64,000 nucleotides of DNA. Origin: a virus. Taxonomy: Duplodnaviria > Heunggongvirae > Uroviricota > Caudoviricetes. Both the position numbers and the translations under genes were made by a program. The notes beneath the pieces were generated by a model. That model ran no database searches. It had not been told where the DNA came from and saw nothing but the letters and a program-made list of their open reading frames with translations. Of the stretch, positions 1,721-14,365 are shown piece after piece (within the stretch, counting starts at the first letter, position 1; each line of letters starts with the position of its first letter). The stretch lies in IMG/VR virus record IMGVR_UViG_3300042564_003265; one strand, given 5' to 3'.

Positions 1721-1740
1721 TGGTATTAAATTATAACATT

Positions 1741-2007: not shown

Positions 2008-2233
2008 GAAAAAAGTAAGTAAAAAATGGAGAATTTTATCTCCCGATGGTTTTCCGATTGAGTTCGGAGTATCGTACTACACAAGTAGTGAGAAAATGTA
2101 TGAGAGTTTTGAGAAATGGAAACAACGATACGAACAACAAGGGTATTATAGTACAATTGAAGACGGAAGAAGGATACAAATTCCTTTGGACGAATTGGAA
2201 AACTATTGTTTTGTATCGTGTTTAGATAATTAA
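2000..2233 (+). CDS. hypothetical early protein
   Basis: ORF overlapping the previous gene by 8 nt (ATGA-type coupling). Confidence 0.5.
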   Translation: MSKKKVSKKWRILSPDGFPIEFGVSYYTSSEKMYESFEKWKQRYEQQGYYSTIEDGRRIQIPLDELENYCFVSCLDN

Positions 2234-2245
2234 AACCATAAAACT

Positions 2246-2599
2246 ATGTTAAAAGTTAAAGACCACAACAAGTATCGTCACTTCGACTACGAAAACGAAC
2301 CCAGTAATACGTACCAACTTGGAGATGTGTTACTCAAAAACTATGATGATGATTTAAGTCCTGAGATTGGAGTGGTGATACAAACATTCTCCGATGGTGA
2401 TTTTAGAACTGATATGTGGGGTATGAGTTCTTATAGTGAAGTGTTACGAGCTAAACTATCAGATGTTAAAGAATATAGACCTGACCTTCTATCAGATTTA
2501 ATTATTAACATAGGTGTTTACTTCACCACCGATGATAATGGTGAAATAACATTTGATGTTGAGGAAATGGAAAACGAGTTAGTCCACTTGACTATGTAA
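2246..2599 (+). CDS. hypothetical early protein
   Basis: ORF followed by a terminator. Confidence 0.5.
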   Translation: MLKVKDHNKYRHFDYENEPSNTYQLGDVLLKNYDDDLSPEIGVVIQTFSDGDFRTDMWGMSSYSEVLRAKLSDVKEYRPDLLSDLIINIGVYFTTDDNGEITFDVEEMENELVHLTM

Positions 2600-2654
2600 A
2601 AATAATTCACTATACTTTAATTAGTTTTAGTTTAGTGTTTGGTAGTAAGTTTAA

Positions 2655-2682
2655 AGGTGAACAGAAATGTTCACCTTTTTTC
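2655..2682 (+). terminator. rho-independent terminator
   Basis: GGTGAACA gaaa TGTTCACC, perfect 8-bp stem followed by T6. The same hairpin recurs at 10661. Confidence 0.75.
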
Positions 2683-2835
2683 GTTTCCAAGAATATCTCC
2701 CCGAAAGCCCGGTACAAATGTAATGTTCAACAGCTAAACGCCGTAAGACATCTCGGATTACCAGCGCTGGTCCAGGTAAACACTGGTAAAAACTATCGCC
2801 GTAAGACATTCGTCTGGTTTCGCGCCAGACCCTAA
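2683..2835. repeat. GC-rich intergenic element, copy C (AATGTTCAACAGC-N5-GCCGTAAGACATCT, plus a second GCCGTAAGACATTC)
   Basis: GC-rich island in an AT-rich context. Track ORF 2635-2835 is rejected as coding. Confidence 0.6.
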
Positions 2836-2887
2836 TTCATCTGTTAAAAAAATAATTTAAAATTTAACAAAAAAATATATCAATTTA

Positions 2888-2919
2888 TTTGGTTTATAAA
2901 ATCTCGTGTAGTAAATTTG
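2888..2919 (+). promoter_or_regulatory. Bacteroidetes-type sigma-A promoter
   Basis: TTTGGtttataaaatctcgtgtagTAAATTTG. Confidence 0.6.
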
Positions 2920-2937
2920 TATAAATAATTAAATCGT

Positions 2938-3804
2938 ATGACAGAACAAACTATCTCCACAGGTAACGAGATTACCGACATTTTGAATCAGACAGGTCTG
3001 AATTGGAATGTAAGAACAGAAGAATTACAAACCACATCAGGTATTATTATTCCTGACAAGATTGGTTTAATCCGTGATGACAACAACACTTGTCTTGGTG
3101 TTCACTCGGGTTCGTATGTTCCTTATCAAAATCAGGAACTACTTGAATTGTTATTCCGTATCTCTCAACAAACAGGATTGGAACTTCACACAGGGGGTTC
3201 ATTCAAAGGTGGTGAGAAGGTGTGGTTTCAATTAAAGTCAGAGGACTTGAAGTTATCTAATGACCGAATCGAAGGTTACATTAGTGGGTTCAACTCATTT
3301 GATGGAAGAACGTCATTAGCGTTTGGTAACTCCAACGTTACAGTATCTTGTCAAAATACTTTTTGGAAAGGATACCGAGATGTGGAAACCAAATTGAGAC
3401 ACTCGTCCGCGATGAAACCAAAGATTGAAGAAATTTTGAGAAAGATTGATGTTCTATTACAAGAAGAACAACAAACCTTTGACAACATTCAACGTCTTGG
3501 GAATGTAAGAATGACTGAACAAGTTAAAGACTTGGTTATCCGTAGATTGTTCGACATTCAAAAAGAAGAGAGATTAGATAGTGATGACTTATCAACGAAT
3601 AAGAAAAACAAACTATCTCGTTTCTACATTGACTTGAATGGTGAACTTCAACAAAAAGGTGATAACCTTTGGGGTTTATTTAGTGGTGTAACAAAATATA
3701 CTACTCATTCTATGAAGAAAGGTGATAACACGGAAGGTAAAATCTTCGGACAAGTTGGTTTCAAAGAGAGACAAATTTGGGACAACCTCGTAGAATTGGT
3801 GTAA
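2938..3804 (+). CDS. DUF932-like phage/plasmid-like protein (TIGR03299-type), tentative
   Basis: ~290 aa with an N-terminal ...ILNQTGLNWNV... motif reminiscent of that family, in an early-gene context. Called from memory only. Confidence 0.35.
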   Translation: MTEQTISTGNEITDILNQTGLNWNVRTEELQTTSGIIIPDKIGLIRDDNNTCLGVHSGSYVPYQNQELLELLFRISQQTGLELHTGGSFKGGEKVWFQLKSEDLKLSNDRIEGYISGFNSFDGRTSLAFGNSNVTVSCQNTFWKGYRDVETKLRHSSAMKPKIEEILRKIDVLLQEEQQTFDNIQRLGNVRMTEQVKDLVIRRLFDIQKEERLDSDDLSTNKKNKLSRFYIDLNGELQQKGDNLWGLFSGVTKYTTHSMKKGDNTEGKIFGQVGFKERQIWDNLVELV

Positions 3805-3845
3805 GACATTGATTTGAGGAAATCAATTGGTGACAACCTGTCGAA

Positions 3846-3875
3846 CCCTCGGACTTTTAGTTCGGGGGTTTTTTG
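3846..3875 (+). terminator. rho-independent terminator
   Basis: CCCUCGGAC uuuua GUUCGGGGG, 9-bp stem (2 G-U pairs) followed by U6. Confidence 0.6.
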
Positions 3876-4030
3876 TTTCCTGTGTACTGTACCTGCACAG
3901 GACCTGGACAGATGTTCAACGGCGAATGGCCGTAAGACATTCACCTGCTGCAGCGCTGCGCTGTTGCGCTGCTTTACTTATTTAACCGGTAGACATCTCA
4001 CCAGTTCAGGGCTGGGGAATTATTCTTCTT
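3876..4030. repeat. GC-rich intergenic element, copy D (GATGTTCAACGGC-gaatg-GCCGTAAGACATTC; ACCGGTAGACATCTC; CAGCGC repeats)
   Basis: Best-preserved copy. Motif pair is separated by 5 nt and can form an imperfect hairpin (AATGT...ACATT outer stem, ACGGC/GCCGT inner stem). Confidence 0.65.
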
Positions 4031-4061
4031 AAAAAACTTTAACACTTTTTAACAAAATAAA

Positions 4062-4093
4062 TTTGGTAGTTAAATAAAACTATATTACTTTTA
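4062..4093 (+). promoter_or_regulatory. Bacteroidetes-type sigma-A promoter
   Basis: TTTGGtagttaaataaaactataTTACTTTTAC. Confidence 0.6.
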
Positions 4094-4112
4094 CATCATT
4101 AAACAAAGAGAT

Positions 4113-4256
4113 ATGAAACTATATTATTATTTACCCAAAGGAGGTTCAGGTATTGGATTCAGTATTAGAGGAAATGATTTAGTAGAAATTAAAAAATCTA
4201 TTAAATCTATTTTAGGTGTTAAGACATTAAGAGGTGTACAAATTTGGGAGGGTTAA
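4113..4256 (+). CDS. small early hypothetical protein (47 aa)
   Basis: ATG 20 nt after the promoter; MKLYYYLPKGGSGIGFSIRGNDLVEIKKSIKSILGVKTLRGVQIWEG. Confidence 0.3.
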   Translation: MKLYYYLPKGGSGIGFSIRGNDLVEIKKSIKSILGVKTLRGVQIWEG

Positions 4257-4276
4257 CAAAAATTTAACTAAAATTA

Positions 4277-4309
4277 TTTGGTAGTTAAATAAAACTATAT
4301 TACTTTTAC
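4277..4309 (+). promoter_or_regulatory. Bacteroidetes-type sigma-A promoter
   Basis: Identical cassette TTTGGtagttaaataaaactataTTACTTTTAC. Confidence 0.6.
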
Positions 4310-4331
4310 ATCGTAATCAAAAACAACTACA

Positions 4332-4550
4332 ATGATAAAGTCAATCGAAGAAAAAGTAACTAAATTAGAAATCGACCTTACAGGTCCAGAGGGAAACTCA
4401 TTTGTCCTATTAGGTATGGTCAAAGATTTATCTAAACAATTAGGATTAGATGGTCAGAAAATTAGATTTGAAATGACAAGTGGAGACTATGAACACCTTG
4501 TCAATACGTTCGACAAGTATTTTGGTGAGTATGTAACATTATATCGTTAA
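4332..4550 (+). CDS. hypothetical early protein
   Basis: ORF 23 nt after the promoter. Confidence 0.5.
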   Translation: MIKSIEEKVTKLEIDLTGPEGNSFVLLGMVKDLSKQLGLDGQKIRFEMTSGDYEHLVNTFDKYFGEYVTLYR

Positions 4551-4566
4551 CAAAAATTTAAATCAT

Positions 4567-4935
4567 ATGGACAACATTAAAGAAATTATCAAAAAAACAA
4601 TGGTACCCAAAGGTTTCTTATCATCAAATGATAGACCTACACAAAGGGCGATAGAGATGTTTTTCATCTATCTCTCACATTTACCAAAAGGTTGGGATGT
4701 TAAAAAAATTAACCGGAATTCAATCGAAGAAGTTAGAAACTACTTTAGGGTTGATTATGGATTCGAGGCGATGATTGCTTGGGGTATAACTATTGGTTGT
4801 GCGAAATCTAACACTTCAAAAGGAAGGTACGAGGCGATGTCAGTTGCTTTCACAATTGCCCAAGGTATGATTGGACAAGGGGTTGTAGTTACTAAAAAAA
4901 CATTATGTCCTACCGAATATTTAAAAGTTGCTTAA
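4567..4935 (+). CDS. hypothetical early protein
   Basis: ORF in the operon. Confidence 0.5.
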   Translation: MDNIKEIIKKTMVPKGFLSSNDRPTQRAIEMFFIYLSHLPKGWDVKKINRNSIEEVRNYFRVDYGFEAMIAWGITIGCAKSNTSKGRYEAMSVAFTIAQGMIGQGVVVTKKTLCPTEYLKVA

Positions 4936-4955
4936 CAAAACTTTAACTAAAATTA

Positions 4956-4988
4956 TTTGGTAGTTAAATAAAACTATATTACTTTTAC
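4956..4988 (+). promoter_or_regulatory. Bacteroidetes-type sigma-A promoter
   Basis: Third copy of the TTTGGtagttaaataaaactataTTACTTTTAC cassette. Confidence 0.6.
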
Positions 4989-5018
4989 ATCATTAAATCA
5001 CAACTAATAAAAAAACTT

Positions 5019-5270
5019 ATGTCAGAGTTAAAAACTAAAACTGATGTCCTAACACATTGGACACAAAAATCGAAAGAGGTTTTACAGGGTAAAACTATTG
5101 TAGAAGTTCGTTATCTAAATGATGATGAAATGGAAATGATGGGTTGGTATAAACGACCTGTGTGTTTCTTCCTTAATGATGGTACAAGTTGTATCTTGTC
5201 CTGTGATGATGAAGGGAATGATGGTGGTGTATTATTTTATGGTAATGACGGAGTGTTACCAACATTATAA
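5019..5270 (+). CDS. hypothetical early protein
   Basis: ORF downstream of the promoter. Confidence 0.5.
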   Translation: MSELKTKTDVLTHWTQKSKEVLQGKTIVEVRYLNDDEMEMMGWYKRPVCFFLNDGTSCILSCDDEGNDGGVLFYGNDGVLPTL

Positions 5271-5289
5271 ACCTTTAAATCAAATCAAG

Positions 5290-5523
5290 ATGAGTTACCT
5301 AACATTAAGAGATTGGAGAGAGAACCACGTTAGAGTGTTGTTCGACCTCAACGGAAGTAAAGTAGAAGTTAAATCAACTGATAGTGATATAACTTACTTC
5401 AAAAGTACGGATAGAAAAATTGTTCAAGATTTTATTGATGATTCTTCAAAACAATTAACTACTATCTATCGACTTAACTTCGAAAACATTCAAGAAGATT
5501 TTTTAAAACTTTTAAATAACTAA
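5290..5523 (+). CDS. hypothetical early protein
   Basis: Internal ATG (MSYLTLRDW...) chosen to avoid overlap with the previous gene. The track ORF starts at 5176. Confidence 0.4.
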   Translation: MSYLTLRDWRENHVRVLFDLNGSKVEVKSTDSDITYFKSTDRKIVQDFIDDSSKQLTTIYRLNFENIQEDFLKLLNN

Positions 5524-5526
5524 GAA

Positions 5527-5976
5527 ATGGGATATACACATTATTGGAACTACAAAAAGAAATCACCGAATTTCGAACAAGAAATGATTAATGTTCATTT
5601 AGACATTCAAACAGGGTTGAAACATATCGACCGAGATAAGATTGTACTACGTGGTGGTGATGGAACAGGAAATCCTGAGTTTACAACCGAGTCCATCATA
5701 TTCAACGGCGATGGGAACGTAGGATTAGACCACGAGACATTTTACTTTGATGGAGAACCAACGGACTATACGTTTTGTAAGACCGTACATAAACCTTATG
5801 ACTTCGTTGTGTGTCTATGTTTATTATCACTATGTAATAGATTAGAAGGGTTTGAATTCAGTTCAGACGGAGGTATTACGGAATGGGAACCGGTTATTCT
5901 TTTCTATCAAAAGTTTATCGGAGAATTAAAACCCGAGGTCATACAAGACTTTATTAAAGTGGAAGAAAATTTTTAA
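5527..5976 (+). CDS. hypothetical early protein
   Basis: ORF. Confidence 0.5.
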   Translation: MGYTHYWNYKKKSPNFEQEMINVHLDIQTGLKHIDRDKIVLRGGDGTGNPEFTTESIIFNGDGNVGLDHETFYFDGEPTDYTFCKTVHKPYDFVVCLCLLSLCNRLEGFEFSSDGGITEWEPVILFYQKFIGELKPEVIQDFIKVEENF

Positions 5977-6006
5977 CACCTTTTAACAAAATTTTAATAA
6001 AAAAAA

Positions 6007-6037
6007 TTTGGTAGTTAAATAAAATTGTATAACTTTG
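6007..6037 (+). promoter_or_regulatory. Bacteroidetes-type sigma-A promoter
   Basis: TTTGGtagttaaataaaattgTATAACTTTG. Confidence 0.55.
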
Positions 6038-6099
6038 TAAACGTATTCATTATTCTATAACTAAATCGGGGACAGGAGTAAATCTGAACAACTACTATC

Positions 6100-6846
6100 G
6101 TGAATAAAATTCAAACAGGTAAAAAAGTAGGAGAAATCTTTGAGACCAAAGATTATTCAATCTTCAAGTTTCGTGATGACAATCGTATTGTGAACACGAA
6201 CCACGTTAAAAAACTTTCACAACGAATGAAAGACAATGGTTGGTTATCTACATCAGTTGTAACAATCAACGGAAGTGGAGAAGTAATTGACGGACAACAT
6301 AGAGTCAAAGCCGCGATGTCGGTGGGTTGTCCAATCCGTTACAAATGTGTAAGGGGAGCGGGTAGTGATGAAATGACATCAATGAACACACTTCAACGAA
6401 ATTGGAGTCCGTTTGACCACTTACATAAGTTTGTTAAGAAAGGAAATCCTAACTACATAACTTTCCAAAAGTTTACAGAGGAGTTTCCAATGTTTAAGTA
6501 CACGGAAATCGCGATGTTGTTACAAAATAGTACAACATCAATCAAAAGAGATAATTTTGATAGTGGTAATTATGTCGTGAGAAACGAAAAGAAAGGTCGT
6601 TTGTGGGGACAATACTTATTAGAGTTGAAACCATACTTTGAAAAGTATTACAACAAATCAATCTTTGTTAGAGGTTTCTTAAAAATCATCTCAAACAAAA
6701 AGGAGTTTGTATTTGAGGAGTTTTTACACAAAGTAAAATTGAGACCAAATATGTTGGTCGCGTGTGGAACTACCGAACAATATATTGAGATGATTGAGAA
6801 CATTTACAATTATAAGAGAAGTAATAAAGTGAATTTGAGATTTTAG
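6100..6846 (+). CDS. ParB/Srx-fold (ParB-like nuclease domain, DUF262-like) protein
   Basis: GTG start. N-terminal domain with ...VVTINGSGEVIDGQHRVKAA... resembling the DGQQR/DGQHR motif of ParB-like nuclease / DUF262 domains. Confidence 0.4.
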   Translation: MNKIQTGKKVGEIFETKDYSIFKFRDDNRIVNTNHVKKLSQRMKDNGWLSTSVVTINGSGEVIDGQHRVKAAMSVGCPIRYKCVRGAGSDEMTSMNTLQRNWSPFDHLHKFVKKGNPNYITFQKFTEEFPMFKYTEIAMLLQNSTTSIKRDNFDSGNYVVRNEKKGRLWGQYLLELKPYFEKYYNKSIFVRGFLKIISNKKEFVFEEFLHKVKLRPNMLVACGTTEQYIEMIENIYNYKRSNKVNLRF

Positions 6847-6868
6847 TAGTTGTAGATGATGAGTGAAA

Positions 6869-6895
6869 GGGGGTGTAGAAATACACCCTTTTTTT
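6869..6895 (+). terminator. rho-independent terminator
   Basis: GGGGGTGTAgaaaTACACCC followed by T7. Near-identical to the terminator at 166-193. Confidence 0.75.
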
Positions 6896-6990
6896 ATGTC
6901 CAAGAATTGTTGAACCCGCAGCGGGTTTGAATGTTCAACGGCGATAACACAAAAGCCGGAGGACATTTACCATCCAGGAACAGAAAAATT
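6896..6990. repeat. GC-rich intergenic element, copy E (GAATGTTCAACGGC ... GCCGGAGGACATTTACC)
   Basis: 13-mer perfect, second motif degenerate. Also an AACCCGCagcGGGTT hairpin. Confidence 0.6.
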
Positions 6991-7026
6991 CTTTAACAAA
7001 ATTTTTAGAAAAAAAAGTAAAATATA

Positions 7027-7059
7027 TTTGGAAATATCAAACTATTAATTGTATATTTG
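7027..7059 (+). promoter_or_regulatory. Bacteroidetes-type sigma-A promoter (consensus)
   Basis: TTTGGaaatatcaaactattaattgTATATTTG, a perfect TAnnTTTG. Confidence 0.65.
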
Positions 7060-7094
7060 TAGTGTAATAATTAATCATCTCAATTTATTAAAAA

Positions 7095-7355
7095 ATGAAA
7101 AAGAAAACCAAACACACATTATTGAAGGGTGAGGGAACAAACCAACATACCCTTTATGGTGATTTCTCAATCGAAGAAGTTACCGAGTATCCTTCATTAG
7201 AAGTAACAAAGGATAGTTTACTTAAACACGAACAACCTGATGGTTCATTTAGTAATGAACACCAAACTCTCAAAATCGAGAAGGGTGATTGGGTGATGGG
7301 TAAACAAGTAGAGTACAATCCATTTGAGGGCAGGGTAACACAAATTTGGGACTAA
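7095..7355 (+). CDS. hypothetical early protein
   Basis: ORF. Confidence 0.5.
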   Translation: MKKKTKHTLLKGEGTNQHTLYGDFSIEEVTEYPSLEVTKDSLLKHEQPDGSFSNEHQTLKIEKGDWVMGKQVEYNPFEGRVTQIWD

Positions 7356-7762
7356 CAATGGCGAACCCTTTAATACATTCAAAATCCAGTGTAAAGAGGT
7401 GGGGTGGAAAAGTAGAAGACTACATATCCATTCACGAATTAATTGATAGTCCGAAGGCGACTATGAATAATAATTCATCAAGATTATTAACACATAATAC
7501 TTGGTTCGCATATCACATTTGTCCAAAAATCTTTGGATACAACATTACCAACTCTGATGGTAGAAGTGTTGATGTGGTTGATATAGCGATGTTACATATC
7601 GCTGAGGACTTTCGTATGAAGTTCGTTCCTACACCACAGGATTACTTACAACACCTACAAGTCCAACCCTGGATGAACAATGGTGTAAAAGTTTTAGAGA
7701 GTGTAGAAGGTCAAGAAATCGTTAAACAATTAAATCAAAAATTACATTATGAAAACAACTAA
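7346..7762 (+). CDS. hypothetical early protein
   Basis: ORF overlapping its neighbours by a few nt. Confidence 0.5.
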   Translation: MGLTMANPLIHSKSSVKRWGGKVEDYISIHELIDSPKATMNNNSSRLLTHNTWFAYHICPKIFGYNITNSDGRSVDVVDIAMLHIAEDFRMKFVPTPQDYLQHLQVQPWMNNGVKVLESVEGQEIVKQLNQKLHYENN

Positions 7763-8399
7763 TGAAGAAATGATTGAGTTATGGAAAAAACTCAACATTG
7801 AACAATGTCTTATGGAGTTCTCTTGTGGTGGGGATAGTATGAACGAAACTGAATTTAAGTTTTTCAACTCAAAGAACGAAGAAGTAGATGGTGAGGAACT
7901 TGAAAGTTACTTTGAAAGTGAAGTATATAATCAAGTTGAGTTTTACGAAGTGTCAGACGGACATTATATGGGTGAGTTTGGTCAGGTGGTAATTACTTTG
8001 GAAGAAGAAGATGGTGAAGAACCTTTCTTTCAGTATGACAAACAATCTCAAAGTGAGTGGGAAGAAAGAGAAGTTCAAGTGATGGAGTATGAACTTACTG
8101 ATAGTGAGGTGAAGTTCCTTACAGAAAAGGTAGATAGTATTGTAGGTGGTGAAGATGGTGAGGCGATTAACTACAAAACCGATTGTGTTCTATCTGATGA
8201 AGAAGAAGAAATTTCTGAAAAGTTATTAAAGGATATTTCTGATACCGCAAATGATTTTGAATTTGAGAATGTTGATGGTGAACAACAAGATTGGTTTATC
8301 TTCACTACAAGAATTGATGATGAAGATGGAGTTATCATTGACGGAAATAAACTATCGGTGGAAGTAACAAGAAATTATTATCAAACAAGAGAAGACTAA
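7749..8399 (+). CDS. highly acidic early protein (candidate DNA mimic / anti-restriction)
   Basis: 216 aa, roughly one-third Asp/Glu and few basic residues, in an early operon. Composition only, no homology claimed. Confidence 0.45.
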   Translation: MKTTNEEMIELWKKLNIEQCLMEFSCGGDSMNETEFKFFNSKNEEVDGEELESYFESEVYNQVEFYEVSDGHYMGEFGQVVITLEEEDGEEPFFQYDKQSQSEWEEREVQVMEYELTDSEVKFLTEKVDSIVGGEDGEAINYKTDCVLSDEEEEISEKLLKDISDTANDFEFENVDGEQQDWFIFTTRIDDEDGVIIDGNKLSVEVTRNYYQTRED

Positions 8400-8410
8400 A
8401 ACTACAAAAA

Positions 8411-9094
8411 ATGAAAATAGTAATCAGTAATCAAAGATTTGACTACAACTTGGGAGTAAGATTGTTAAAGTCAAAATATAGAGAGTGTCCAGATTGGATT
8501 GACATTCAAGACATTTGGAACGACATTGAACCAATGACATTCAAAGAAGTCGCTAAGTCATTTAAGAATGTTGAGGAACGAAGAATTGCGATTGGGTGTT
8601 TGGGTATTACAAATATCGCAGAGGAATTAAATCCTGTGTTGGTTAAGAGTGAAACCTTAAATAAACAAACCACTTGGGTTAAACCTGATGGTGAGTTGTT
8701 TACCAAGAAGTTTGATGATACCTACGAACTTTACAAAGTGAAGAAGGAAGATTTGTTAGATGGTACTGAACGTAGTTGGGGTTTAGATGATGTGTACTTT
8801 TTGAAGTTCAAAGACACATCAACCGATAGGGAGTATATGTTGTGGATTGACAGGGATAGTGTCGCTCGGGTGAATAACAAACAACGACATTTTTCTTCTG
8901 ATATGAGAAACGAAATTACTCCAACCCAATGTATCGCTTGGACTATTCAGACAGATATTGTTGAAGGTGGGATTGAGAAGATTGTTCGTCAGGGTGATTG
9001 TATCTTAATTAAAAAGAAACCAACCGCAGAGAAGGGTAGTGTAAGACACATTACCGAAAGTGAGTATCGAAATTTATTGGTGTTAGAAAGTTAG
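8411..9094 (+). CDS. hypothetical early protein
   Basis: ORF followed by a terminator. Confidence 0.5.
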   Translation: MKIVISNQRFDYNLGVRLLKSKYRECPDWIDIQDIWNDIEPMTFKEVAKSFKNVEERRIAIGCLGITNIAEELNPVLVKSETLNKQTTWVKPDGELFTKKFDDTYELYKVKKEDLLDGTERSWGLDDVYFLKFKDTSTDREYMLWIDRDSVARVNNKQRHFSSDMRNEITPTQCIAWTIQTDIVEGGIEKIVRQGDCILIKKKPTAEKGSVRHITESEYRNLLVLES

Positions 9095-9117
9095 TAGTTC
9101 ATAGGTTTAATGGTTAA

Positions 9118-9147
9118 AACCCTTCGCTTTTAGTGAGGGGTTTTTTT
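9118..9147 (+). terminator. rho-independent terminator
   Basis: CCCUUCGC uuuua GUGAGGGG followed by U7. Confidence 0.55.
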
Positions 9148-9149
9148 AT

Positions 9150-9300
9150 GTATAATGATTTCCGACGCTGCGCTGAGGGTGAATGTTCAACAGCTTTTAA
9201 CCGGTAGACATCTCTACATTGCTGTGCAAAACCAGAAGAGTAAAAAAAAGCCCCGACATTGCTGTCGAGGCTCGGGACTTACTAACCATCCACAAAGAAA
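9150..9300. repeat. GC-rich intergenic element, copy F (GAATGTTCAACAGC-N6-CCGGTAGACATCTC)
   Basis: Also holds a CCCGA...TCGGG hairpin with an A/T-tract that can terminate the minus-strand gene 9308-9703. Confidence 0.55.
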
Positions 9301-9307
9301 CACTATA

Positions 9308-9703
9308 CTAAATCGTACCTTCTATTCCGTGTATTTTCTTGGTAATACGTTTACCCTTCTTTTCGTAGTTCTCGTATCCAATTAAGAAGTTGTCTTTTTG
9401 AGTTCCAATTAAACAAGAACCTTCAACTTTAACATTACCATAATTTACTTTCAACTGCTTCATAAAAGAATTGAAAGACTTTTCAAGTTTACGCCCTATG
9501 ACATCTGACGGAGGTACAGGTGCGTTTTCAATTCGGTAATGTGTTCCTATTCTTGAAAATTTAATTCCATACATAGACTTCTTTTCAAATCCCGGAACAC
9601 TTTGACTCAAGCAACTTCTCATAGAGTCGAGGGACTTCTTTAAAGTTTGTGTTGTGTCTTTTCTTGGTTTTTGTATCATAACAAATTTTGTTTGTTTCCA
9701 CAA
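9308..9703 (-). CDS. hypothetical protein; the only minus-strand gene inside the plus-strand early block
   Basis: 131-aa basic ORF in opposite orientation, flanked by a GC-rich element and a promoter-rich A/T tract. No recognisable motifs. Confidence 0.4.
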   Translation of the reverse strand: MWKQTKFVMIQKPRKDTTQTLKKSLDSMRSCLSQSVPGFEKKSMYGIKFSRIGTHYRIENAPVPPSDVIGRKLEKSFNSFMKQLKVNYGNVKVEGSCLIGTQKDNFLIGYENYEKKGKRITKKIHGIEGTI

Positions 9704-9756
9704 AAGTAATGCTAATATGTTAATAAAAAAAAAATAAAAAAAAAATATCCATAATA

Positions 9757-9789
9757 TTTGGGTATATCAAAGTAATAGCCGTATATTTG
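9757..9789 (+). promoter_or_regulatory. Bacteroidetes-type sigma-A promoter (consensus)
   Basis: TTTGGgtatatcaaagtaatagccgTATATTTG. Confidence 0.65.
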
Positions 9790-9829
9790 TACTCGGGATA
9801 TTTATCTATTACAATATAAACATCTGAAT

Positions 9830-10624
9830 ATGAAACTAACCGATATAATTAACGAGTCACCAGAGAGGGAAGTTGGTGAAGGGGGTTACTCCAGAGTAAT
9901 GACATCTATGAGAGGAGCCGTTCCTAAAATTAAAACCATAGGAATCCTAACCGCCCATAATCCTTGTGCAAATGAACTTTCGCCAGAGGAAAACAATAGA
10001 CGTAATGCTCGACTTGAAAAAGAATTGGGTAGTTACTTATTTGGATACAGGAAGGTGAAGGGTAAGTACGGGACAGAGGAAGATAGTTTCTTGGTAAACA
10101 ACATTACTAAAAAGCAATTGCTGCAACTTGGAAATGATTATGAACAAGAGAGTGTTATCTTTGGTGATTACTTTGAGGAGGGTGAAGAGTATGGTATGAA
10201 CTTCTCAATGATTAGGACTCATACTTGCGACACTGATGAACCGGTTGGTTCTATAATGGGTATCAGAAAAGTATTCATTGACAGAAACAACTCTGATAAC
10301 TTCTACTCCGAGATTAAGGGACGTAAATTCCAAATCCCATTCTTCGAAGTACCAACCTTTGATGATAAAGATGGAACACAGACAGGTGAGAAGTTCAAGC
10401 ATATGTATGATGACCATTATGATAATGCATCGTTTGATGGTGGTAAAGTAGTTGGTAGTATTAGAACATACCCAAACAAAAAAGATGTGGCAGATAAAAT
10501 ATCTGATGAGGACAAGAAAGAGATTGAGAAGTTAAATGACCAATCCTTAAATGAGAATAAGACTTTATCTAACGGATACAATAAAAGAGGTAGGATTATT
10601 AATATCCTTAACAAATATATGTAA
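9830..10624 (+). CDS. hypothetical early protein
   Basis: 264-aa ORF followed by a terminator. Confidence 0.5.
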   Translation: MKLTDIINESPEREVGEGGYSRVMTSMRGAVPKIKTIGILTAHNPCANELSPEENNRRNARLEKELGSYLFGYRKVKGKYGTEEDSFLVNNITKKQLLQLGNDYEQESVIFGDYFEEGEEYGMNFSMIRTHTCDTDEPVGSIMGIRKVFIDRNNSDNFYSEIKGRKFQIPFFEVPTFDDKDGTQTGEKFKHMYDDHYDNASFDGGKVVGSIRTYPNKKDVADKISDEDKKEIEKLNDQSLNENKTLSNGYNKRGRIINILNKYM

Positions 10625-10660
10625 GATTGTTTTTTAGTGGTTATGATTTAATCGAAGAAG

Positions 10661-10687
10661 GGTGGACAGAAATGTTCACCTTTTTTT
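10661..10687 (+). terminator. rho-independent terminator
   Basis: GGTGGACA gaaa TGTTCACC followed by T7. Confidence 0.7.
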
Positions 10688-10875
10688 GTGCTAATAATCG
10701 TCCGACGCACAGCTCGGCGACAAATGTTCAACGGCGAATAGCCGTATGACATCTACCATCGCAGCGCAAACGCCAGGCATTTCTGGTTTATTGCGCGCAA
10801 ATACCAGTTTTTACCAGGCACAGTCTCCAGCGCAACAGGGAGGATGTTCAACGGCTTAGTAGCCGATAAACTTTT
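10688..10875. repeat. GC-rich intergenic element, copy G (AAATGTTCAACGGC-gaata-GCCGTATGACATCTACC; second GATGTTCAACGGC; CAGCGC repeats)
   Basis: Two copies of the 13-mer within one element. Confidence 0.65.
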
Positions 10876-10896
10876 TTAAAAATATATAAAGATTTA

Positions 10897-10929
10897 TTTG
10901 GAATACGGTCCATATTGTATTACCTTTAC
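10897..10929 (+). promoter_or_regulatory. Bacteroidetes-type sigma-A promoter
   Basis: TTTGGaatacggtccatattgtatTACCTTTAC. Confidence 0.5.
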
Positions 10930-10952
10930 ACTGTTATAAAAAAAAGACACTT

Positions 10953-11078
10953 ATGTGGAAGATATTCAAGACCGCACTCAAGATTACCATCACCGTTTGG
11001 TTAATAAAATCCATATGGAATGATATTGGACAGGAGGATGTTGACAAGCTTAAGTCAGTCTTTAAACAAATCAATTAA
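10953..11078 (+). CDS. small hydrophobic early protein (41 aa)
   Basis: ATG 24 nt after the promoter; MWKIFKTALKITITVWLIKSIW... includes a TM-like stretch. Confidence 0.3.
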   Translation: MWKIFKTALKITITVWLIKSIWNDIGQEDVDKLKSVFKQIN

Positions 11079-11096
11079 AATAAAACAAACACAATT

Positions 11097-11606
11097 ATGG
11101 CCAGAAACAACAGACTTATTGAAGTCGTGTTCTCAAACGTTATCGGTAACGACGAACGTGTGAGTCAGTACGAGAAATTTTTAACTACAGACAAAGCCCT
11201 TGGTATTGAGGAGACTGAAGACATCAGAGACGCTAAAGCTTTGTATGCATCTATCATCAAGAATAACAAGACTGTTTTGGATGAACTTGCAAAGCTTGAG
11301 GAATCAATTGTACAGTTAAGATGTCGTGAGCAAGTGCTAAAGGAATTCAAATTGTCCAAGGTACGTGAGTATATCTATGCAAGAGCATTATTTTTTAGAC
11401 CCGGTCGTGAGGTGAAGGACATCCGTGTAGTGGTTGGTCGAACAGACGTCTACGGGGAGGACCTTCAGGACCTAATGTTCAACGGCGACTTTATGACGAT
11501 AGCCCGAGCTAAACTATCTGAGGCAATGGATTATGAGATTACTGAGAACAAATATTATATCAGAAATCTTAAGACGAAGTATGGGAAAAAAATGTTAGTA
11601 AAATAA
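11097..11606 (+). CDS. hypothetical early protein
   Basis: 169-aa ORF. Contains an in-frame copy of TAATGTTCAACGGC at 11473. Confidence 0.5.
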   Translation: MARNNRLIEVVFSNVIGNDERVSQYEKFLTTDKALGIEETEDIRDAKALYASIIKNNKTVLDELAKLEESIVQLRCREQVLKEFKLSKVREYIYARALFFRPGREVKDIRVVVGRTDVYGEDLQDLMFNGDFMTIARAKLSEAMDYEITENKYYIRNLKTKYGKKMLVK

Positions 11607-11627
11607 ATCTAGAATTATTTGGAATAT

Positions 11628-11649
11628 TCTAGAATATATTTTAATTTAC
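11628..11649 (+). promoter_or_regulatory. Bacteroidetes-type sigma-A promoter
   Basis: TTTGGaatattctagaatatattTTAATTTAC. Confidence 0.45.
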
Positions 11650-11668
11650 ACCCCTAAACCAAACACAT

Positions 11669-12022
11669 ATGAATTTCATATCTCAATTGAATACCATTAG
11701 GGATTCGATGCACCGTGAATTAGTTCAGGAAGCAACAGTACGTACATTTATAAAAGAAGATAGTACCGACGGTTTCATAGAACTGGTAGAACCATTTAGA
11801 TTTTATAAGGATGACTATCATCCGCTAAAAGGTAATTACACATACGAGTGTTACGTGATAGGAATTCATAGTTTGTCTGGTGATTTGATGGGAGAAGACA
11901 TTGACGGATTCCAAAGATGTATTAACTACAGGGACCTGAGTCTTGAGGAGATGTCAAAGCTCCACGAATATATTGTGCAACAAAAACAATTTAAATTTAG
12001 ACTGTATGACGAAAAGAATTAA
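11669..12022 (+). CDS. hypothetical early protein
   Basis: ORF. Confidence 0.5.
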   Translation: MNFISQLNTIRDSMHRELVQEATVRTFIKEDSTDGFIELVEPFRFYKDDYHPLKGNYTYECYVIGIHSLSGDLMGEDIDGFQRCINYRDLSLEEMSKLHEYIVQQKQFKFRLYDEKN

Positions 12023-12416
12023 AGTACGGTTCAATCTCGGACGAGGTCCTAATTACCTGAAGTGGAAGGTGTCATACCCGAACGGGGAGGTAATGTATTA
12101 CCATCCGACCGGTACACAGCTCACAATGAGGGGCTGTACACTGAAGAATAATAAAAGTGCAGCACAAAAGATATTCCGTGGTGAGACTAATAAGACAGTT
12201 TGTGCTTGGGTCCTATGTGAGGGTATCGATATTAAGTTTGATAACTTCGAACAGCACGACCTTGGTAAGAGCCCAAGGTTGAAGTATAATCCTCGGGTAG
12301 CTCCGTCTTGGATGATAGAGTACACACATATGCATCACTCCGACATCAGGGTTGACAATGAGTACTTCAATCAAATCTCCTCAGTGGATTACAGATTATT
12401 CATTACTAAAATTTAA
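12006..12416 (+). CDS. hypothetical early protein
   Basis: ATG at 12006 (MTKRIKVRFNLGRG...). The track ORF begins at an upstream TTG. Confidence 0.45.
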   Translation: MTKRIKVRFNLGRGPNYLKWKVSYPNGEVMYYHPTGTQLTMRGCTLKNNKSAAQKIFRGETNKTVCAWVLCEGIDIKFDNFEQHDLGKSPRLKYNPRVAPSWMIEYTHMHHSDIRVDNEYFNQISSVDYRLFITKI

Positions 12417-12418
12417 AT

Positions 12419-12568
12419 AATGGAAAATAACGAGCAACAAGAAATGTTCACATCAGATGAGGTGGACCATATAGTGAAGAAGGTAAGAAATTACCAAGCA
12501 AATATTGGTATACTCATTGCAGCAATTGTAATGGGTCTGTTATTCTTGAGGGACTACCTGATGAGATA
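12419..12568 (+). CDS. small membrane protein (49 aa)
   Basis: MENNEQQEMFTSDEVDHIVKKVRNYQANIGILIAAIVMGLLFLRDYLMR, with a C-terminal TM helix. Confidence 0.3.
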
Positions 12569-12613
12569 ACAGCACCGTCGTAAATGTTTAACGGCTAACT
12601 AATTTTTTTATAT

Positions 12614-12820
12614 ATGAAACGCACACTAAATCGTATCGGCTGGTGGTTTGACTACTACATCGCCTATTTCCTGTACCACCCAACTAAAAGGAAACGTTAC
12701 CACAGGTATATGTTCCACAAGTATGGTAAGTTATATGACCAACGATGTCCCAACTGCCATAAAGAGAAATCCCCGTATGAAAACTTAGAACAACTACGTC
12801 GAGGACGTTCAAAACATTAG
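12614..12820 (+). CDS. small basic protein
   Basis: ORF preceded by the TAAATGTTTAACGGC motif at 12581. Confidence 0.4.
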   Translation: MKRTLNRIGWWFDYYIAYFLYHPTKRKRYHRYMFHKYGKLYDQRCPNCHKEKSPYENLEQLRRGRSKH

Positions 12821-12821
12821 T

Positions 12822-13187
12822 ATGAGAATATTCCTCATTTTTGCAACGTTGTTTGCCTCCTTCAGTATTCTGTACCCCCCTTGGGGGACACAGTTACTTT
12901 CTGTTGCAGTTTTAAATCTGTGTCTACATCTGTTGGACCTGAAGACGGTGACAAATGTTCAACGGCCAAAACCAAGGGTCAAAAAGCCGGAAGACATTCC
13001 CAAGGCCCCTGTGCCTGAGTCACCTCCTCCACCCTACGTTCAGGATGTCCTTTCAGGACTTTCGAATATGGGACTTAAGAAGTCCGAAGCCGTTAGACTT
13101 GTATTACAGGTCCGTCGGGAGGAACCGTCCCTTCGGGACACAGGTGAAATTCTAAAGAGATGTATTACTCTATCCTATAAAAAATAG
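12822..13187 (+). CDS. questionable ORF in a GC-rich region: N-terminal TM helix, Pro-rich linker, RuvA domain III-like C-terminus
   Basis: C-terminus DVLSGLSNMGLKKSEAVRLVLQV...TGEILKRCI resembles the RuvA C-terminal helical domain. The region is ~50% GC and contains the AAATGTTCAACGGC ... GCCGGAAGACATTCC element and a GTCCC-UUCG-GGGAC hairpin, so it may instead be non-coding. Confidence 0.3.
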   Translation: MRIFLIFATLFASFSILYPPWGTQLLSVAVLNLCLHLLDLKTVTNVQRPKPRVKKPEDIPKAPVPESPPPPYVQDVLSGLSNMGLKKSEAVRLVLQVRREEPSLRDTGEILKRCITLSYKK

Positions 13188-13249
13188 TTCCGGCAAATTT
13201 GACTTTGTCATATTCTAATGTTATATTTTATATATAAACATTTATAGAA

Positions 13250-13444
13250 ATGGCAACTAAAAAAACAACAACCCTGAAAAAGACTCGTCGCACACCCGTA
13301 ACAACTTACGTTCCTGTGGCGAGCAATGTGTACTTCGACGGTACGTCATACCGTGTACGCGTTATTAAGAATGGCGTTCGCAACAGCAAGAACTTTTCTT
13401 CTAAGCGTGCAGCATTACAATACCGCAAACAGTTGTTAGGCTAA
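13250..13444 (+). CDS. small basic DNA-binding protein, AP2/integrase-arm-like fold (tentative)
   Basis: SNVYFDGTSYRVRVIKNGVRNSKNFSSKRAALQYRKQLL matches the Y.GV...G.(R/K)...F.T.(E/K)AA..Y pattern of AP2-like / arm-DNA-binding domains. Confidence 0.35.
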   Translation: MATKKTTTLKKTRRTPVTTYVPVASNVYFDGTSYRVRVIKNGVRNSKNFSSKRAALQYRKQLLG

Positions 13445-14053
13445 TCCCTACGACTCGATGTATGACCGAATTCCCTGGGGACTGATTGTCCCTGGGGATT
13501 TTTTATGCCCCTTCGGGGAAGTGATGTATGACTCATTTAGCCGTATGACATTCTGAGAATAGATGTATAAACAACTAAATTACGCCGTAAGACATTGTTT
13601 AATTCTGTTTAACTAAACCGTCCATTCCTTAAACAAAATAATGGGACCAGTAATCGGGCCTCCCTGCGGTCGGCCCTTCGGGGACGAGGTGTAGTACGTC
13701 GGGGAAAGGTCACGTATGACCGTATATGTGTATATGTATGTGTATAAATTGTGGATATAAATGTATGACCTTTATAAATTTTTTAAAACCAGGTCTCGTT
13801 TCACGGACAGGACAATCCCCCACTATTTACCACTTATCCCCACTTTTTCCCCAAAACTGGTTTCTCTGTATGACCAGGGGGAATTTTAGTCTGTAATACC
13901 TATATACTAATATAAAAATATACTACGACAAAAAGTATGACAAAATGTCTGGTTTTTTAGGGGTATTTTTATCCCTTTTTAGTATATCTGAGGGGGAAAA
14001 AATTTAGGGTGTTGCCGGAACCTGACATATAGGTCGGGGACTGTCGTCCCCTC
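13445..14053. other. ~600 bp non-coding convergence zone with GTATGAC iterons, (TG/TA)n tract and CCC-UUCG-GGG hairpins; candidate replication origin, packaging site or terminus
   Basis: At least 8 copies of GTATGAC / GTAAGAC within the zone (13459, 13526, 13543, 13587, 13714, 13764, 13868, 13935) and one more just inside the adjacent ORF at 14088. GC-rich hairpins at 13507 and 13683. Lies between convergent transcription units. Confidence 0.5.
13472..13504 (+). terminator. rho-independent terminator at the end of the early plus-strand block
   Basis: UCCCUGGGGAC ugauu GUCCCUGGGGA, 11-bp stem (2 G-U pairs) followed by U6. Confidence 0.7.
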
Positions 14054-14365
14054 CTAAGCTAGTAAAGATTGTAGTAAGTATGACAACTTATACCCTGTGA
14101 ATGCTCCGAGAGCTGAGGGGATGGGGAACACTATAAGTTTCCCTAAGTCTGTAACATATCGGGGTCTATTCTGAATTCTTCCTAACATATAGTAGTAACT
14201 CATATACCCTACTAAAACCATAACGTCTACTCTTGTGGAAATGAAAACCACGATGGTTGCTCCTAAGAATCCGAAGAAGAAATTATCTCTTACTCCTTCC
14301 CATACCTCTAAGGGTGTTGCCTCATTCCATTCCTTTACTATCTTTTGTAATCTCTTCTTTGCCAT
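14054..14365 (-). CDS. membrane protein (2 TM helices)
   Basis: Hydrophobic segments FFFGFLGATIVVFISTRVDVMVLVGYM and LIVFPIPSALGAFTGY. Confidence 0.45.
   Translation of the reverse strand: MAKKRLQKIVKEWNEATPLEVWEGVRDNFFFGFLGATIVVFISTRVDVMVLVGYMSYYYMLGRIQNRPRYVTDLGKLIVFPIPSALGAFTGYKLSYLLQSLLA

What the first reader, a model, noticed from the sequence alone, without database searches (positions are those of the whole stretch)
13445..14110. 600-bp non-coding convergence zone packed with GTATGAC iterons, a (TG/TA)n tract and UUCG-tetraloop hairpins: candidate origin, packaging site or terminus
Between the last plus-strand early gene (ends 13444, strong terminator at 13472-13504) and the end of the minus-strand block (14054) there is no credible ORF. 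The heptamer GTATGAC (or GTAAGAC) occurs at least 8 times in 13.45-14.05 kb (13459, 13526, 13543, 13587, 13714, 13764, 13868, 13935) and once more at 14088 just inside the adjacent ORF. It is often extended to (C)CGTATGACAT, the same core as the intergenic-element motif; about 0.08 copies are expected by chance. The region also contains gtatatgtgtatatgtatgtgtata, two C(C)C-UUCG-GGG hairpins (13507, 13683; a third at 13128) and a GC-rich stretch at 13640-13720 in an otherwise AT-rich genome. Iterons plus an AT-rich tract at a transcriptional convergence point are typical of replication origins, pac/cos regions or genome termini.
Basis: seen in the sequence. Interest (0 to 1): 0.7.

Follow-up and report, generated by a model that had tools for sequence, protein, structure and literature searches.

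The report
Heptamer-packed boundary zone of phage early genes
A 600-base gene-free stretch at the end of a large uncultured phage's early genes is a conserved DNA landing pad. It is packed with a 7-letter word that fills the early region but is missing from the next 58,000 or more bases, and a tiny DNA-binding protein encoded right beside it probably reads that word.

Summary
Window 13445-14053 has no credible ORF and carries 9 co-oriented GTAWGAC heptamers in 640 nt (0.07 expected), a (TA/TG)n tract, a strong terminator and GC-rich hairpins.

It is not a decayed spacer. The same zone follows the same small gene in at least 9 lineages of large uncultured phages with Bacteroidota-type promoters.

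The "iteron" belongs to a degenerate 7-bp palindrome, GT(A/C)(A/T)(G/T)AC:
- It is about 7-fold enriched on the early-gene side across relatives and about 3-fold in this window.
- It is absent from the other 50 kb of the window (0 vs 18.5 expected) and from 10 kb beyond.
- It is nearly absent from the far side in ten relatives (2 vs 19.9).

The gene immediately upstream (13250-13444) encodes a 64-aa protein whose predicted fold best matches AP2 and integrase arm-binding DNA-binding domains.

A conserved core holds 10-bp-phased CCAC repeats, an AT tract, a near-invariant 18-mer and a minus-strand promoter-like site.

There is no Rfam match, no conserved RNA fold, no conserved DnaA boxes and no attB.

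Best reading: a protein-binding array that closes and marks the early domain. Origin, terminus or packaging roles remain untested rivals.

The parts
13198..13229 (+). Promoter of the small gene. Bacteroidota type: TTTG, 20 nt, TAnnTTT.
   Evidence: Regex scan and consensus scan at 13199-13227. Same architecture as the repeated early promoters (families D1/D2).
13250..13444 (+). Last early gene: a 64-aa basic protein with an AP2 / integrase-arm-binding-like fold. It is the candidate reader of the heptamers.
13460..13466 (+). Heptamer 1, GTATGAC
   Evidence: Conserved in L006 although the flanks differ.
13472..13504 (+). Intrinsic terminator of the early block
   Evidence: 11-bp stem, 5-nt loop, T6.
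13507..13518 (+). CCCC-UUCG-GGGG hairpin
   Evidence: In L006 the stem is kept and the loop is GAAG.
13526..13593 (+). Heptamers 2-4 (13526, 13543, 13587). The last two sit in a GCCGTAWGACATT context, which is the 3' arm of the intergenic palindrome.
   Evidence: Natural variants lack the 44 nt between the two GTAWGACATT copies (about 13550-13593), which looks like repeat-mediated deletion.
13656..13676 (+). Conserved stem-loop GGGCC-TCCCTGCGGTC-GGCCC
   Evidence: Same loop with compensatory stem changes in other lineages: GGGAC/GTCCC in L069 and L070, GGGACC/GGTCCC in L006.
13714..13720 (+). Heptamer 5, GTATGAC
   Evidence: Conserved in L006 and next to the TA-tract in L003 and L013.
13722..13746 (.). 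Alternating (TA/TG)n tract
   Evidence: An equivalent alternating purine-pyrimidine tract sits at the same place in all relatives, with a different sequence in each.
13763..13769 (+). Heptamer 6, GTATGAC
13770..13792 (.). AT-rich tract. Its counterpart in relatives is AAAATATAAAAATATAA.
13802..13818 (.). Conserved block CACGGACAGGACAATCC
   Evidence: GGGACAATCC / GGGTCAATCC is present in all lineages.
13817..13853 (.). Three to four (C)CCAC repeats at an exact 10-bp period (13820, 13830, 13840, 13850)
   Evidence: Present in all lineages at a 10-11-bp period. The whole block is inverted in L012, L055, L046 and L048.
13868..13874 (+). Heptamer 7, GTATGAC. It is homologous to the GTAATAC of the conserved block GATTGTAATACGACCAGC.
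   Evidence: L006 has GTATTAC here, a change that stays within the family.
13893..13899 (.). Palindromic family member GTAATAC
   Evidence: Relatives have GTAATAC, GTATTAC or GTCATAC at this position.
13913..13944 (-). Promoter-like site on the minus strand, reading back into the repeats
   Evidence: Relatives keep TTTG-N17-21-TAnnTTTG-like with three different -7 solutions: TATATATG, TAGATTTG, TACTTTTG (sequences).
13925..13952 (.). Homologue of the near-invariant 18-mer ACGACAAAAAATGTCTGG. Here it is split by an 8-nt insert that carries heptamer 8 (13935-13941).
   Evidence: The 18-mer is exact in 5 lineages from IMG/VR and 7 more metagenome versions. It is single-copy in the window.
13959..13982 (+). 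Weak hairpin followed by a T-run
14036..14051 (.). GGGGAC-TGTC-GTCCCC hairpin just after the stop codon of the convergent block
14078..14084 (+). Heptamer 9, GTATGAC, inside the 3' end of minus-strand ORF 14054-14365. It is the last family member before at least 58 kb with none.

Best explanation
What the zone is. It is a conserved, non-coding, protein-binding DNA element that closes the roughly 23-kb early-gene domain of a large uncultured phage (at least 142 kb). Its promoters are of the Bacteroidota type.

The repeated word. It is a member of a 7-bp degenerate palindrome, GT(A/C)(A/T)(G/T)AC. GTATGAC is the half-degenerate form and GTAATAC/GTATTAC are the perfect forms.

The likely reader. 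The 64-aa AP2-fold protein is the last early gene. It lies upstream of the zone in every lineage, immediately so in this window.

Proposed mechanism (inferred, not shown):
1. The protein is made from its own early promoter.
2. It first fills the dense co-oriented array next to its own gene.
3. It then fills the sites that overlap the -7 box of some early promoters and the palindromic elements that sit between each early terminator and the next promoter.
4. This shuts off or insulates the early domain and blocks read-through into the convergent gene block.
5. Because bound sites obstruct polymerases, the word has been purged from the rest of the genome.

The conserved core (13800-13955) is a second layer of the same platform, and its own role is open. 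It holds a minus-strand promoter-like site, 10-bp-phased CCAC repeats whose orientation can flip, an AT tract and the near-invariant 18-mer.

Shown: repeats, conservation, domain-restricted distribution, fold, synteny. Inferred: who binds, and what binding does.
For: Enrichment:
- 9 co-oriented GTAWGAC in 640 nt against 0.07 expected.

The family behaves as one unit:
- In window 14101-64000 there are 0 GTMWKAC against 18.5 expected. GTMNKAC gives 2 against 26.3, whereas GTANNAC words with A or C at position 5, apart from GTATCAC (0 found, 6.2 expected), occur near expectation.
- A further 10 kb beyond the window has 0 against 5.0 expected.
- In ten relatives the far side has 2 against 19.9 (P = 5e-7) and the early side 135 against 19.3.
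- An unbiased contrast of all 7-mers between the two parts of the window ranks GTATGAC first, GTAATAC second and GTAAGAC fourth.

Selection on the word itself:
- Between the window and L006, 47 of 49 aligned heptamer columns are identical. Both changes stay inside the family (A to T at W, G to T at K).
- Other non-coding columns are 71% identical.
- At homologous sites, lineages carry GTATGAC, GTATTAC, GTAATAC or GTCATAC.

Placement:
- 33 of 51 sites in the early block are intergenic, in 31% of the sequence.
- Several GTATTAC overlap the -7 box of early promoters, and others form arms of post-terminator palindromes.

The candidate reader:
- The residues of the beta sheet are invariant across 29 homologues, matching the invariance of GTATGAC.
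- The gene and the zone travel together in at least 9 lineages, down to 56% protein identity. In L070, GTATGAC is the commonest 7-mer after the gene, with 6 copies.

DNA level rather than RNA level:
- The word is avoided on both strands.
- The CCAC block is inverted in some lineages.
- There is no Rfam hit and no conserved RNA fold.
Against: - No binding data exist. The link between protein and motif rests on adjacency, fold and co-conservation only.
- Complete purging of a 7-mer family is more typical of nuclease-site avoidance than of transcription-factor sites.
- One GTCTTAC lies in the 834 nt to the left of the early block in L068, so exclusion may not hold on that side.
- The model does not explain the 18-mer or the phased CCAC repeats.
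Confidence: 0.42

Rival explanations
1. Replication origin. Initiator-binding repeats (heptamers and/or the 10-bp-phased CCAC repeats) sit next to an AT-rich unwinding tract. The origin is activated or primed by transcription from the minus-strand promoter, as at T4 oriF/oriG or lambda ori.
For: - The core is single-copy and conserved, with 3-4 phased direct repeats, an AT tract and a promoter-like site reading into them.
- Short heptamer/octamer iterons have a precedent (P4 ori/crr, from my own knowledge).
- The zone lies at a strand-switch point.
Against: - None of the flanking ORFs that were scanned shows an initiator, helicase or primase domain.
- DnaA-like boxes are only marginally enriched (5 against about 1.9) and are absent from several relatives.
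- The junction is convergent and at a skew maximum, not a minimum.
- The heptamers are spread over 23 kb, and origin function does not explain their exclusion from the rest of the genome.
Confidence: 0.2
2. Genome terminus, packaging signal or T5-like injection-stop region. The early block would be the first-entering or terminally repeated DNA, and the zone would be the cis site where entry pauses or where terminase acts.
For: - Like T5 Repeat Region 3 (iss), it is a large untranslated region at the distal end of the first-expressed block. It is dense in direct repeats (T5 has 9 DRD copies), inverted repeats and palindromes, and is better conserved than many of the neighbouring ORFs (bioRxiv 10.1101/866236; this window).
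- It contains TTATCCCCA, a variant DnaA box also listed for T5.
Against: - The paired DnaA boxes that define the T5 iss are not conserved here.
- No terminase was found nearby in the ORFs scanned.
- Contigs that carry the zone do not end in it. They break 3-6 kb away in a hypervariable stretch.
- There is no evidence for a terminal repeat.
Confidence: 0.12
3. Nuclease logic. GTMWKAC would be the recognition site of a restriction-type or homing-type endonuclease, from host or phage. Essential DNA has purged the site. In the hyperplastic early block the sites are tolerated or used as break and recombination points that shuffle gene cassettes.
For: - The word is a symmetric degenerate palindrome, formally like AccI GTMKAC plus one central base (my own knowledge). 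Its depletion is near-total, which is typical of restriction avoidance.
- The early block is a cassette array with indels between strains, and repeat-mediated deletion occurs between two heptamers.
- HNH endonuclease ORFs abut the zone in L006.
Against: - A restriction target would be purged from the early block too. Instead it is enriched there about 3-fold in this window and about 7-fold across relatives, and conserved site by site.
- No nuclease with this specificity is known to me or was identified here.
Confidence: 0.1
4. RNA-level element. The zone would encode a non-coding RNA, for example a 3'UTR-type sRNA from the minus-strand promoter. Alternatively the heptamers and palindromes would be RNA hairpins or cleavage sites in early transcripts, in the manner of T7 RNase III sites or T4 RegB sites.
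For: - A minus-strand promoter-like site is conserved through three different -7 solutions.
- One hairpin (13656-13676) and one inverted repeat show compensatory changes.
- GTAWGAC is 20 to 4 in favour of the sense strand in the window's early block.
- The intergenic elements keep one orientation.
Against: - No Rfam match even at E = 10.
- RNAalifold energies are weak (-14 and -3.6 kcal/mol), with little or no support from covariation (covariation terms +2.33 and -0.66).
- The CCAC block is inverted in some lineages.
- The word is avoided on the antisense strand as well.
- Many elements lie after terminators.
Confidence: 0.08

Closest known systems
Phage T5 injection-stop region (Repeat Region 3 of the left terminal repeat)
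   Same: Both are a large untranslated region at the far end of the first-expressed block of small genes. Both have many direct repeats, inverted repeats and palindromes. Both are conserved across relatives more strongly than many neighbouring ORFs (bioRxiv 10.1101/866236).
   Different: The T5 region is defined by pairs of DnaA boxes at fixed spacing inside a terminal repeat. Here DnaA-like words are not conserved and no terminal repeat is known. The repeated word also fills the whole early block and is excluded from the rest of the genome.
Arm-type sites of tyrosine-recombinase attP regions (lambda Int, Tn916 Int, HPI Int N-terminal domains)
   Same: A small three-stranded-sheet DNA-binding domain of the AP2 type reads short repeated sites of 7-11 bp scattered over a few hundred bp. 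The model matches 3jtz and 1bb8.
   Different: The protein has no catalytic domain. No integrase was found nearby. The conserved 20-mer has no meaningful bacterial counterpart. The sites number dozens over 23 kb.
Iteron-type origins (lambda ori, P4 ori/crr octamers, pMV158 dso with three 11-bp repeats)
   Same: Short direct repeats, helically phased triplets, an adjacent AT-rich tract and possible transcriptional activation.
   Different: No initiator gene lies adjacent. The junction is convergent. The repeat block flips orientation between lineages. The heptamers are not confined to the element. The comparison rests on features recalled from my own knowledge, not on a homology test.
Global operator networks and region-restricted binding sites (KorB OB sites of RK2, P1 ParB heptamer boxes, matS/MatP, Noc/SlmA sites)
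   Same: A short word is placed near many promoters, or confined to one chromosomal domain and absent from another, and is read by one dedicated protein.
   Different: Those words are longer (13-16 bp, or heptamers within a compact parS) and are read by HTH or ParB-type proteins. A phage early-domain version read by an AP2-fold protein has not been described, to my knowledge.
Restriction-site avoidance in phage genomes
   Same: Near-total loss of a symmetric degenerate palindrome (0 against 18.5 expected; 2 against 19.9 in relatives).
   Different: Avoidance is limited to one part of the genome, and the same word is enriched and conserved in the other part.

Membership tests
Iteron-type replication origin | Cluster of direct repeats that could bind an initiator | tested here: met
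   9 heptamers and 3-4 phased CCAC repeats. Binding itself was not testable.
Iteron-type replication origin | Initiator (Rep, helicase or primase) gene in or next to the element | tested here: not met
   The flanking ORFs that were scanned give no such domain in Pfam or PHROGs. The neighbour is a 64-aa AP2-fold protein.
Iteron-type replication origin | Conserved DnaA boxes / AT-rich unwinding element | tested here: inconclusive
   An AT tract is present and conserved. DnaA-like words number 5 against about 1.9 expected here but are absent from L052, L050, L024 and L012.
Iteron-type replication origin | Cumulative GC-skew minimum | tested here: not met
   Skew reaches a maximum at about 12-13 kb and tracks gene orientation throughout.
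pac/cos packaging site or physical terminus | Adjacent terminase genes | tested here: not met
   No terminase hit among the 10 flanking ORFs, nor among the large ORFs scanned. Not every ORF of the window was scanned.
pac/cos packaging site or physical terminus | Read starts or a coverage step in virion DNA | not testable with these tools
   No reads are available. Contig ends do not coincide with the zone.
T5-type injection stop signal | Conserved untranslated repeat region at the distal end of the first-expressed block | tested here: met
   compared.
T5-type injection stop signal | Paired DnaA boxes at fixed spacing, inside a terminal repeat | tested here: not met
   Boxes are not conserved. 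Terminal-repeat status is not testable.
attP with arm-type sites | Tyrosine recombinase gene and a core identical to a bacterial attB | tested here: not met
   The neighbouring protein is only 64 aa. The 20-mer found one unrelated GC-rich coding match in 185,579 genomes.
Described structured RNA (Rfam) | Covariance-model match or conserved secondary structure | tested here: not met
   No hit at the gathering threshold, and only noise at E of 10 or less. Consensus folds are weak, with little or no support from covariation.
AP2 / integrase-arm-binding DNA-binding fold (neighbouring protein) | Three-stranded antiparallel sheet packed on a C-terminal helix, with AP2 domains as best structural matches | tested here: met
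Restriction-type site avoidance | Symmetric word depleted far below Markov expectation across the genome | tested here: inconclusive
   Met for 14.1-64 kb plus 10 kb beyond (0 against 23.5) and in relatives (2 against 19.9). Reversed in the early block, which has 43 GTMNKAC against 12.6 expected.

The most novel reading that the evidence does not exclude
The phage uses a 7-bp palindromic 'address code'. GTMWKAC marks the roughly 23-kb early domain for a dedicated AP2-fold protein and is purged from the rest of the genome. One tiny protein could then silence, insulate or physically organise a whole temporal class of genes. The convergence zone would be the nucleation and boundary element of that domain. 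This would be a phage counterpart of domain-restricted systems such as matS/MatP or KorB, built on a DNA-binding fold known in phages mainly as a module of homing endonucleases and integrases.
Probability: 0.3. Interest if true: 0.8.

Novelty: new variant of a known kind. Interest (0 to 1): 0.66.

Why it matters
If the reading is right, it gives a simple and testable mechanism for how a large phage switches off and fences in its early programme: one 64-aa protein and one 7-bp word.

It would define a conserved non-coding landmark for a whole family of uncultured freshwater jumbo-size phages that currently have no cultured relative.

It would also show that k-mer presence/absence maps can reveal regulatory domains in uncultured viral genomes. 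The exclusion of the word from at least 58 kb is a strong, falsifiable signal whichever protein reads it.

Tried and rejected
- GenBank phages. A DNA search and two protein searches found nothing, so there is no cultured relative.
- Rfam at gathering and at E = 10, and tRNA/tmRNA scan: nothing.
- RNAalifold on both strands of the conserved core: weak energies and no convincing covariation. A conserved structured ncRNA was rejected as the main explanation.
- DnaA boxes: marginal here and not conserved. Rejected as a defining feature.
- attB search with the 20-mer in 185,579 genomes: one chance match in a GC-rich coding region. attP rejected.
- Helical phasing of the heptamers: the spacings (66, 17, 44, 127, 49, 105, 25, 42, 143) show no common phase.
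- A literature search for the heptamer string returned only primer noise.
- Pfam gives no ParB domain for the PHROG 'ParB-like' protein, so a ParB/parS reading has weak support.
- Walking to the far left of the contig was blocked by the look-up rule. The left boundary was instead seen in a 91%-identical relative.
- Resemblances to the T7 promoter start (TAATACGAC), to the pMV158 nick site (TACTACGAC) and to the CRESS nonanucleotide (NAGTATTAC) were recalled from memory. I treat them as coincidences because nothing else supports them.

Full report
**The observation.**
Window 13445-14053 lies between the stop of the last plus-strand gene (13250-13444) and the stop of the first minus-strand gene (14054-14365). 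It holds only short, low-complexity ORFs of 56 aa or less.

Exact GTATGAC occurs on the + strand at 13460, 13526, 13543, 13714, 13763, 13868, 13935 and 14078, and GTAAGAC at 13587. That is 9 co-oriented copies in 640 nt against 0.06-0.07 expected.

The strong terminator (13472-13504), the UUCG hairpins, the GC-rich stretch and the 25-nt (TA/TG)n tract are all present. Otherwise the description is accurate.

**Conservation.**
There is no match in GenBank phages, by DNA or by two proteins. Public viral and metagenome contigs do hold many relatives.

- A close relative, L006, is 87% identical overall across the alignment of the small gene plus the zone.
- More distant lineages keep the same order of blocks: L003/L045, the L013 group, L017, L024, L012/L055, L046/L048, L050, L052, L010, L069 and L070.
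- That order is: small gene (sometimes followed by one or two ORFs), terminator, GTATGAC copies around an alternating TA/TG/CA tract, AT-rich tract, GGGACAATCC, three or four (C)CCAC repeats at a 10-11-bp period, GTAATAC(GACCAGC), a variable segment flanked by an inverted repeat, and the 18-mer ACGACAAAAAATGTCTGG.
- The 18-mer is exact in twelve versions whose flanking proteins are only 55-65% identical.
- In the window and L006 the 18-mer is split by an 8-nt insert that itself carries a GTATGAC.
- Gene order around the zone is conserved. It is always a convergent junction.

Relatives sit on contigs of 80-310 kb, several near 232 kb. The window itself spans two JGI contigs that together make 142 kb. 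This is therefore a family of large, uncultured, mostly freshwater phages. Their early promoters are of the Bacteroidota type, TTTG-N19-21-TAnnTTT(G/A).

**What the 'iteron' really is.**
GTATGAC, GTAAGAC, GTAATAC and GTATTAC replace each other at homologous positions. Together they form the degenerate palindrome GT(A/C)(A/T)(G/T)AC.

Its distribution is the most striking result.

| Region | Observed | Expected |
|---|---|---|
| Window 14101-64000 (GTMWKAC) | 0 | 18.5 |
| Window 14101-64000 (GTMNKAC) | 2 | 26.3 |
| 10 kb beyond the window | 0 | 5.0 |
| Window 1-14100 (GTMNKAC) | 43 | 12.6 |
| Ten relatives, far side of the zone | 2 | 19.9 (P = 5e-7) |
| Ten relatives, early side of the zone | 135 | 19.3 |

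- GTANNAC words with A or C at position 5, apart from GTATCAC (0 found, 6.2 expected), occur near expectation.
- In a blind contrast of all 7-mers between the two parts of the window, GTATGAC, GTAATAC and GTAAGAC rank 1st, 2nd and 4th.
- The early block runs from a divergent junction about 9.7 kb left of the window to the zone, about 23 kb in all.
- 33 of its 51 sites are intergenic, although only 31% of the block is intergenic.
- Some sites overlap the -7 box of early promoters.
- Many sites are arms of an imperfect palindrome, ATGTYYWAC(R)GC...CCGKWRGACAT, that sits between each early terminator and the next promoter.

Between the window and L006, aligned heptamer columns are 47/49 identical and both changes stay within the family. 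Other non-coding columns are 71% identical.

**The neighbour.**
The 64-aa product of 13250-13444 has no Pfam or PHROG match. It does have 32 homologues, all small and basic, with an invariant Y-DG-SYR-R core.

The gene has its own early-type promoter and terminator. It precedes the zone in every lineage examined, down to 56% identity, and in all of them the word is still GTATGAC.

**What it is not.**
- There is no Rfam family, tRNA or tmRNA.
- Consensus RNA folds of the core are weak on either strand.
- The CCAC block is inverted in four lineages, which is hard to reconcile with one structured RNA.
- Two local hairpins do show compensatory changes: the inverted repeat flanking the variable segment, and GGGCC-TCCCTGCGGTC-GGCCC at 13656-13676.
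- DnaA-like boxes are marginal and not conserved.
- The 20-mer has no bacterial counterpart.
- No initiator or terminase was found near the zone among the ORFs scanned.
- GC skew peaks here, but it simply follows gene orientation.

**Mechanism.**
The most economical reading is a protein-binding platform. The AP2-fold protein is the last early product. It would bind GTMWKAC in the array beside its gene, in and around early promoters, and in the post-terminator palindromes. Binding would shut off or insulate the early domain and stop read-through into the convergent block. Sites elsewhere would obstruct polymerases and have been purged.

This explains the co-conservation of gene and word, the intergenic bias, the overlap with -7 boxes, the avoidance on both strands and the position at the domain boundary. 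It does not explain the 18-mer, the phased CCAC repeats or the minus-strand promoter-like site. That site is at 13944-13913, and relatives show three different -7 solutions. Together with the AT tract, these features keep a transcription-activated origin alive as the main rival.

A T5-like injection-stop or terminus role is formally similar but lacks its defining DnaA-box pairs. A nuclease-site reading fits the purge but not the enrichment.

I put the binding-array model at about 0.4, origin at 0.2, terminus/packaging/injection stop at 0.12, nuclease logic at 0.1 and RNA-level function at 0.08.

**Novelty.**
Repeat-rich non-coding zones and small phage regulators are known kinds. A 7-bp palindromic word that fills one temporal gene domain and is excluded from the rest of a large phage genome is a different matter. 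Here it is also paired with a stand-alone AP2-fold protein and conserved across a whole uncultured family. To my knowledge this combination has not been described. I file it as a new variant of a known kind, with a real chance that it is something more.

Noticed in passing
window 1-13200 and L061 1-8734: The early block is an array of more than 35 small-gene cassettes. Each has a near-identical 75-nt promoter element (TTAACA-N5-TTAACA...TTTGG-N19-20-TAYYTTT) and its own hairpin terminator. This resembles T4-type hyperplastic regions or the SPO1 host-takeover module.
   Followed up: partly
window 1074, 2723, 3912, 6931, 9183, 10724, 10844, 11475, 12584, 12955; L061 980-5850: An imperfect palindrome, ATGTYYWAC(R)GC-loop-CCGKWRGACAT, recurs after early terminators and always in the same orientation. 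In the left part of the block the left arm is the consensus heptamer (GTCTTAC). In the right part the right arm is (GTAWGAC). One copy (12955) lies inside ORF 12822-13187.
   Followed up: partly
window about 13550-13593: Natural variants (L037, L040-L042) lack exactly the 44 nt between two GTAWGACATT copies. This indicates repeat-mediated deletion or duplication inside the zone.
   Followed up: yes
L006 6239-7977: In the closest divergent relative, two HNH-endonuclease-like ORFs (148 and 431 aa) are inserted directly at the right edge of the zone, in place of the window's gene 14054-14365.
   Followed up: no
L012, L055, L046, L048 versus L003, L013, L017 (core module): The roughly 40-bp block of phased CCAC repeats is present in inverted orientation in some lineages. 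It is flanked by a short inverted repeat (ACAATCC...GGATTGT).
   Followed up: partly
window 14101-64000: Other words are strongly depleted in this part: TAAATA (44 against 99 expected), ATATTTA (10 against 38) and CCGGAA (1 against 14.7). CAGCGC occurs 9 times in 1-14100 and never afterwards.
   Followed up: no
window about 59630: The window is 100% identical to JGI contig Ga0453230_0000052 (86.6 kb) up to about 59.64 kb. It continues into contig Ga0453230_0000107 (55.9 kb) of the same sample. The genome is therefore at least 142 kb, and the public assembly breaks in the glycosyltransferase block.
   Followed up: partly
L068 923-1294: In a close relative, the first gene of the early block gives a weak hit to the C-terminal domain of the RNA polymerase alpha subunit. 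It lies just right of the divergent junction that starts the block.
   Followed up: no
window 48417-49511, 43080-44066, 28089-29285, 54020-60455: The motif-free part encodes an unusually long thymidylate-synthase-family protein (364 aa), a C5 cytosine methylase, a T4-type RNA ligase, and a plus-strand island of glycosyltransferases and a sugar epimerase. These hint at DNA or surface modification.
   Followed up: no
L013, L052, L010, L012; window 13861-13882 and 151-192: The heptamer repeatedly sits in the loop or loop-stem junction of terminator-like hairpins, for example aaCCCCCttGTATGACacttGGGGGtttttt.
   Followed up: no
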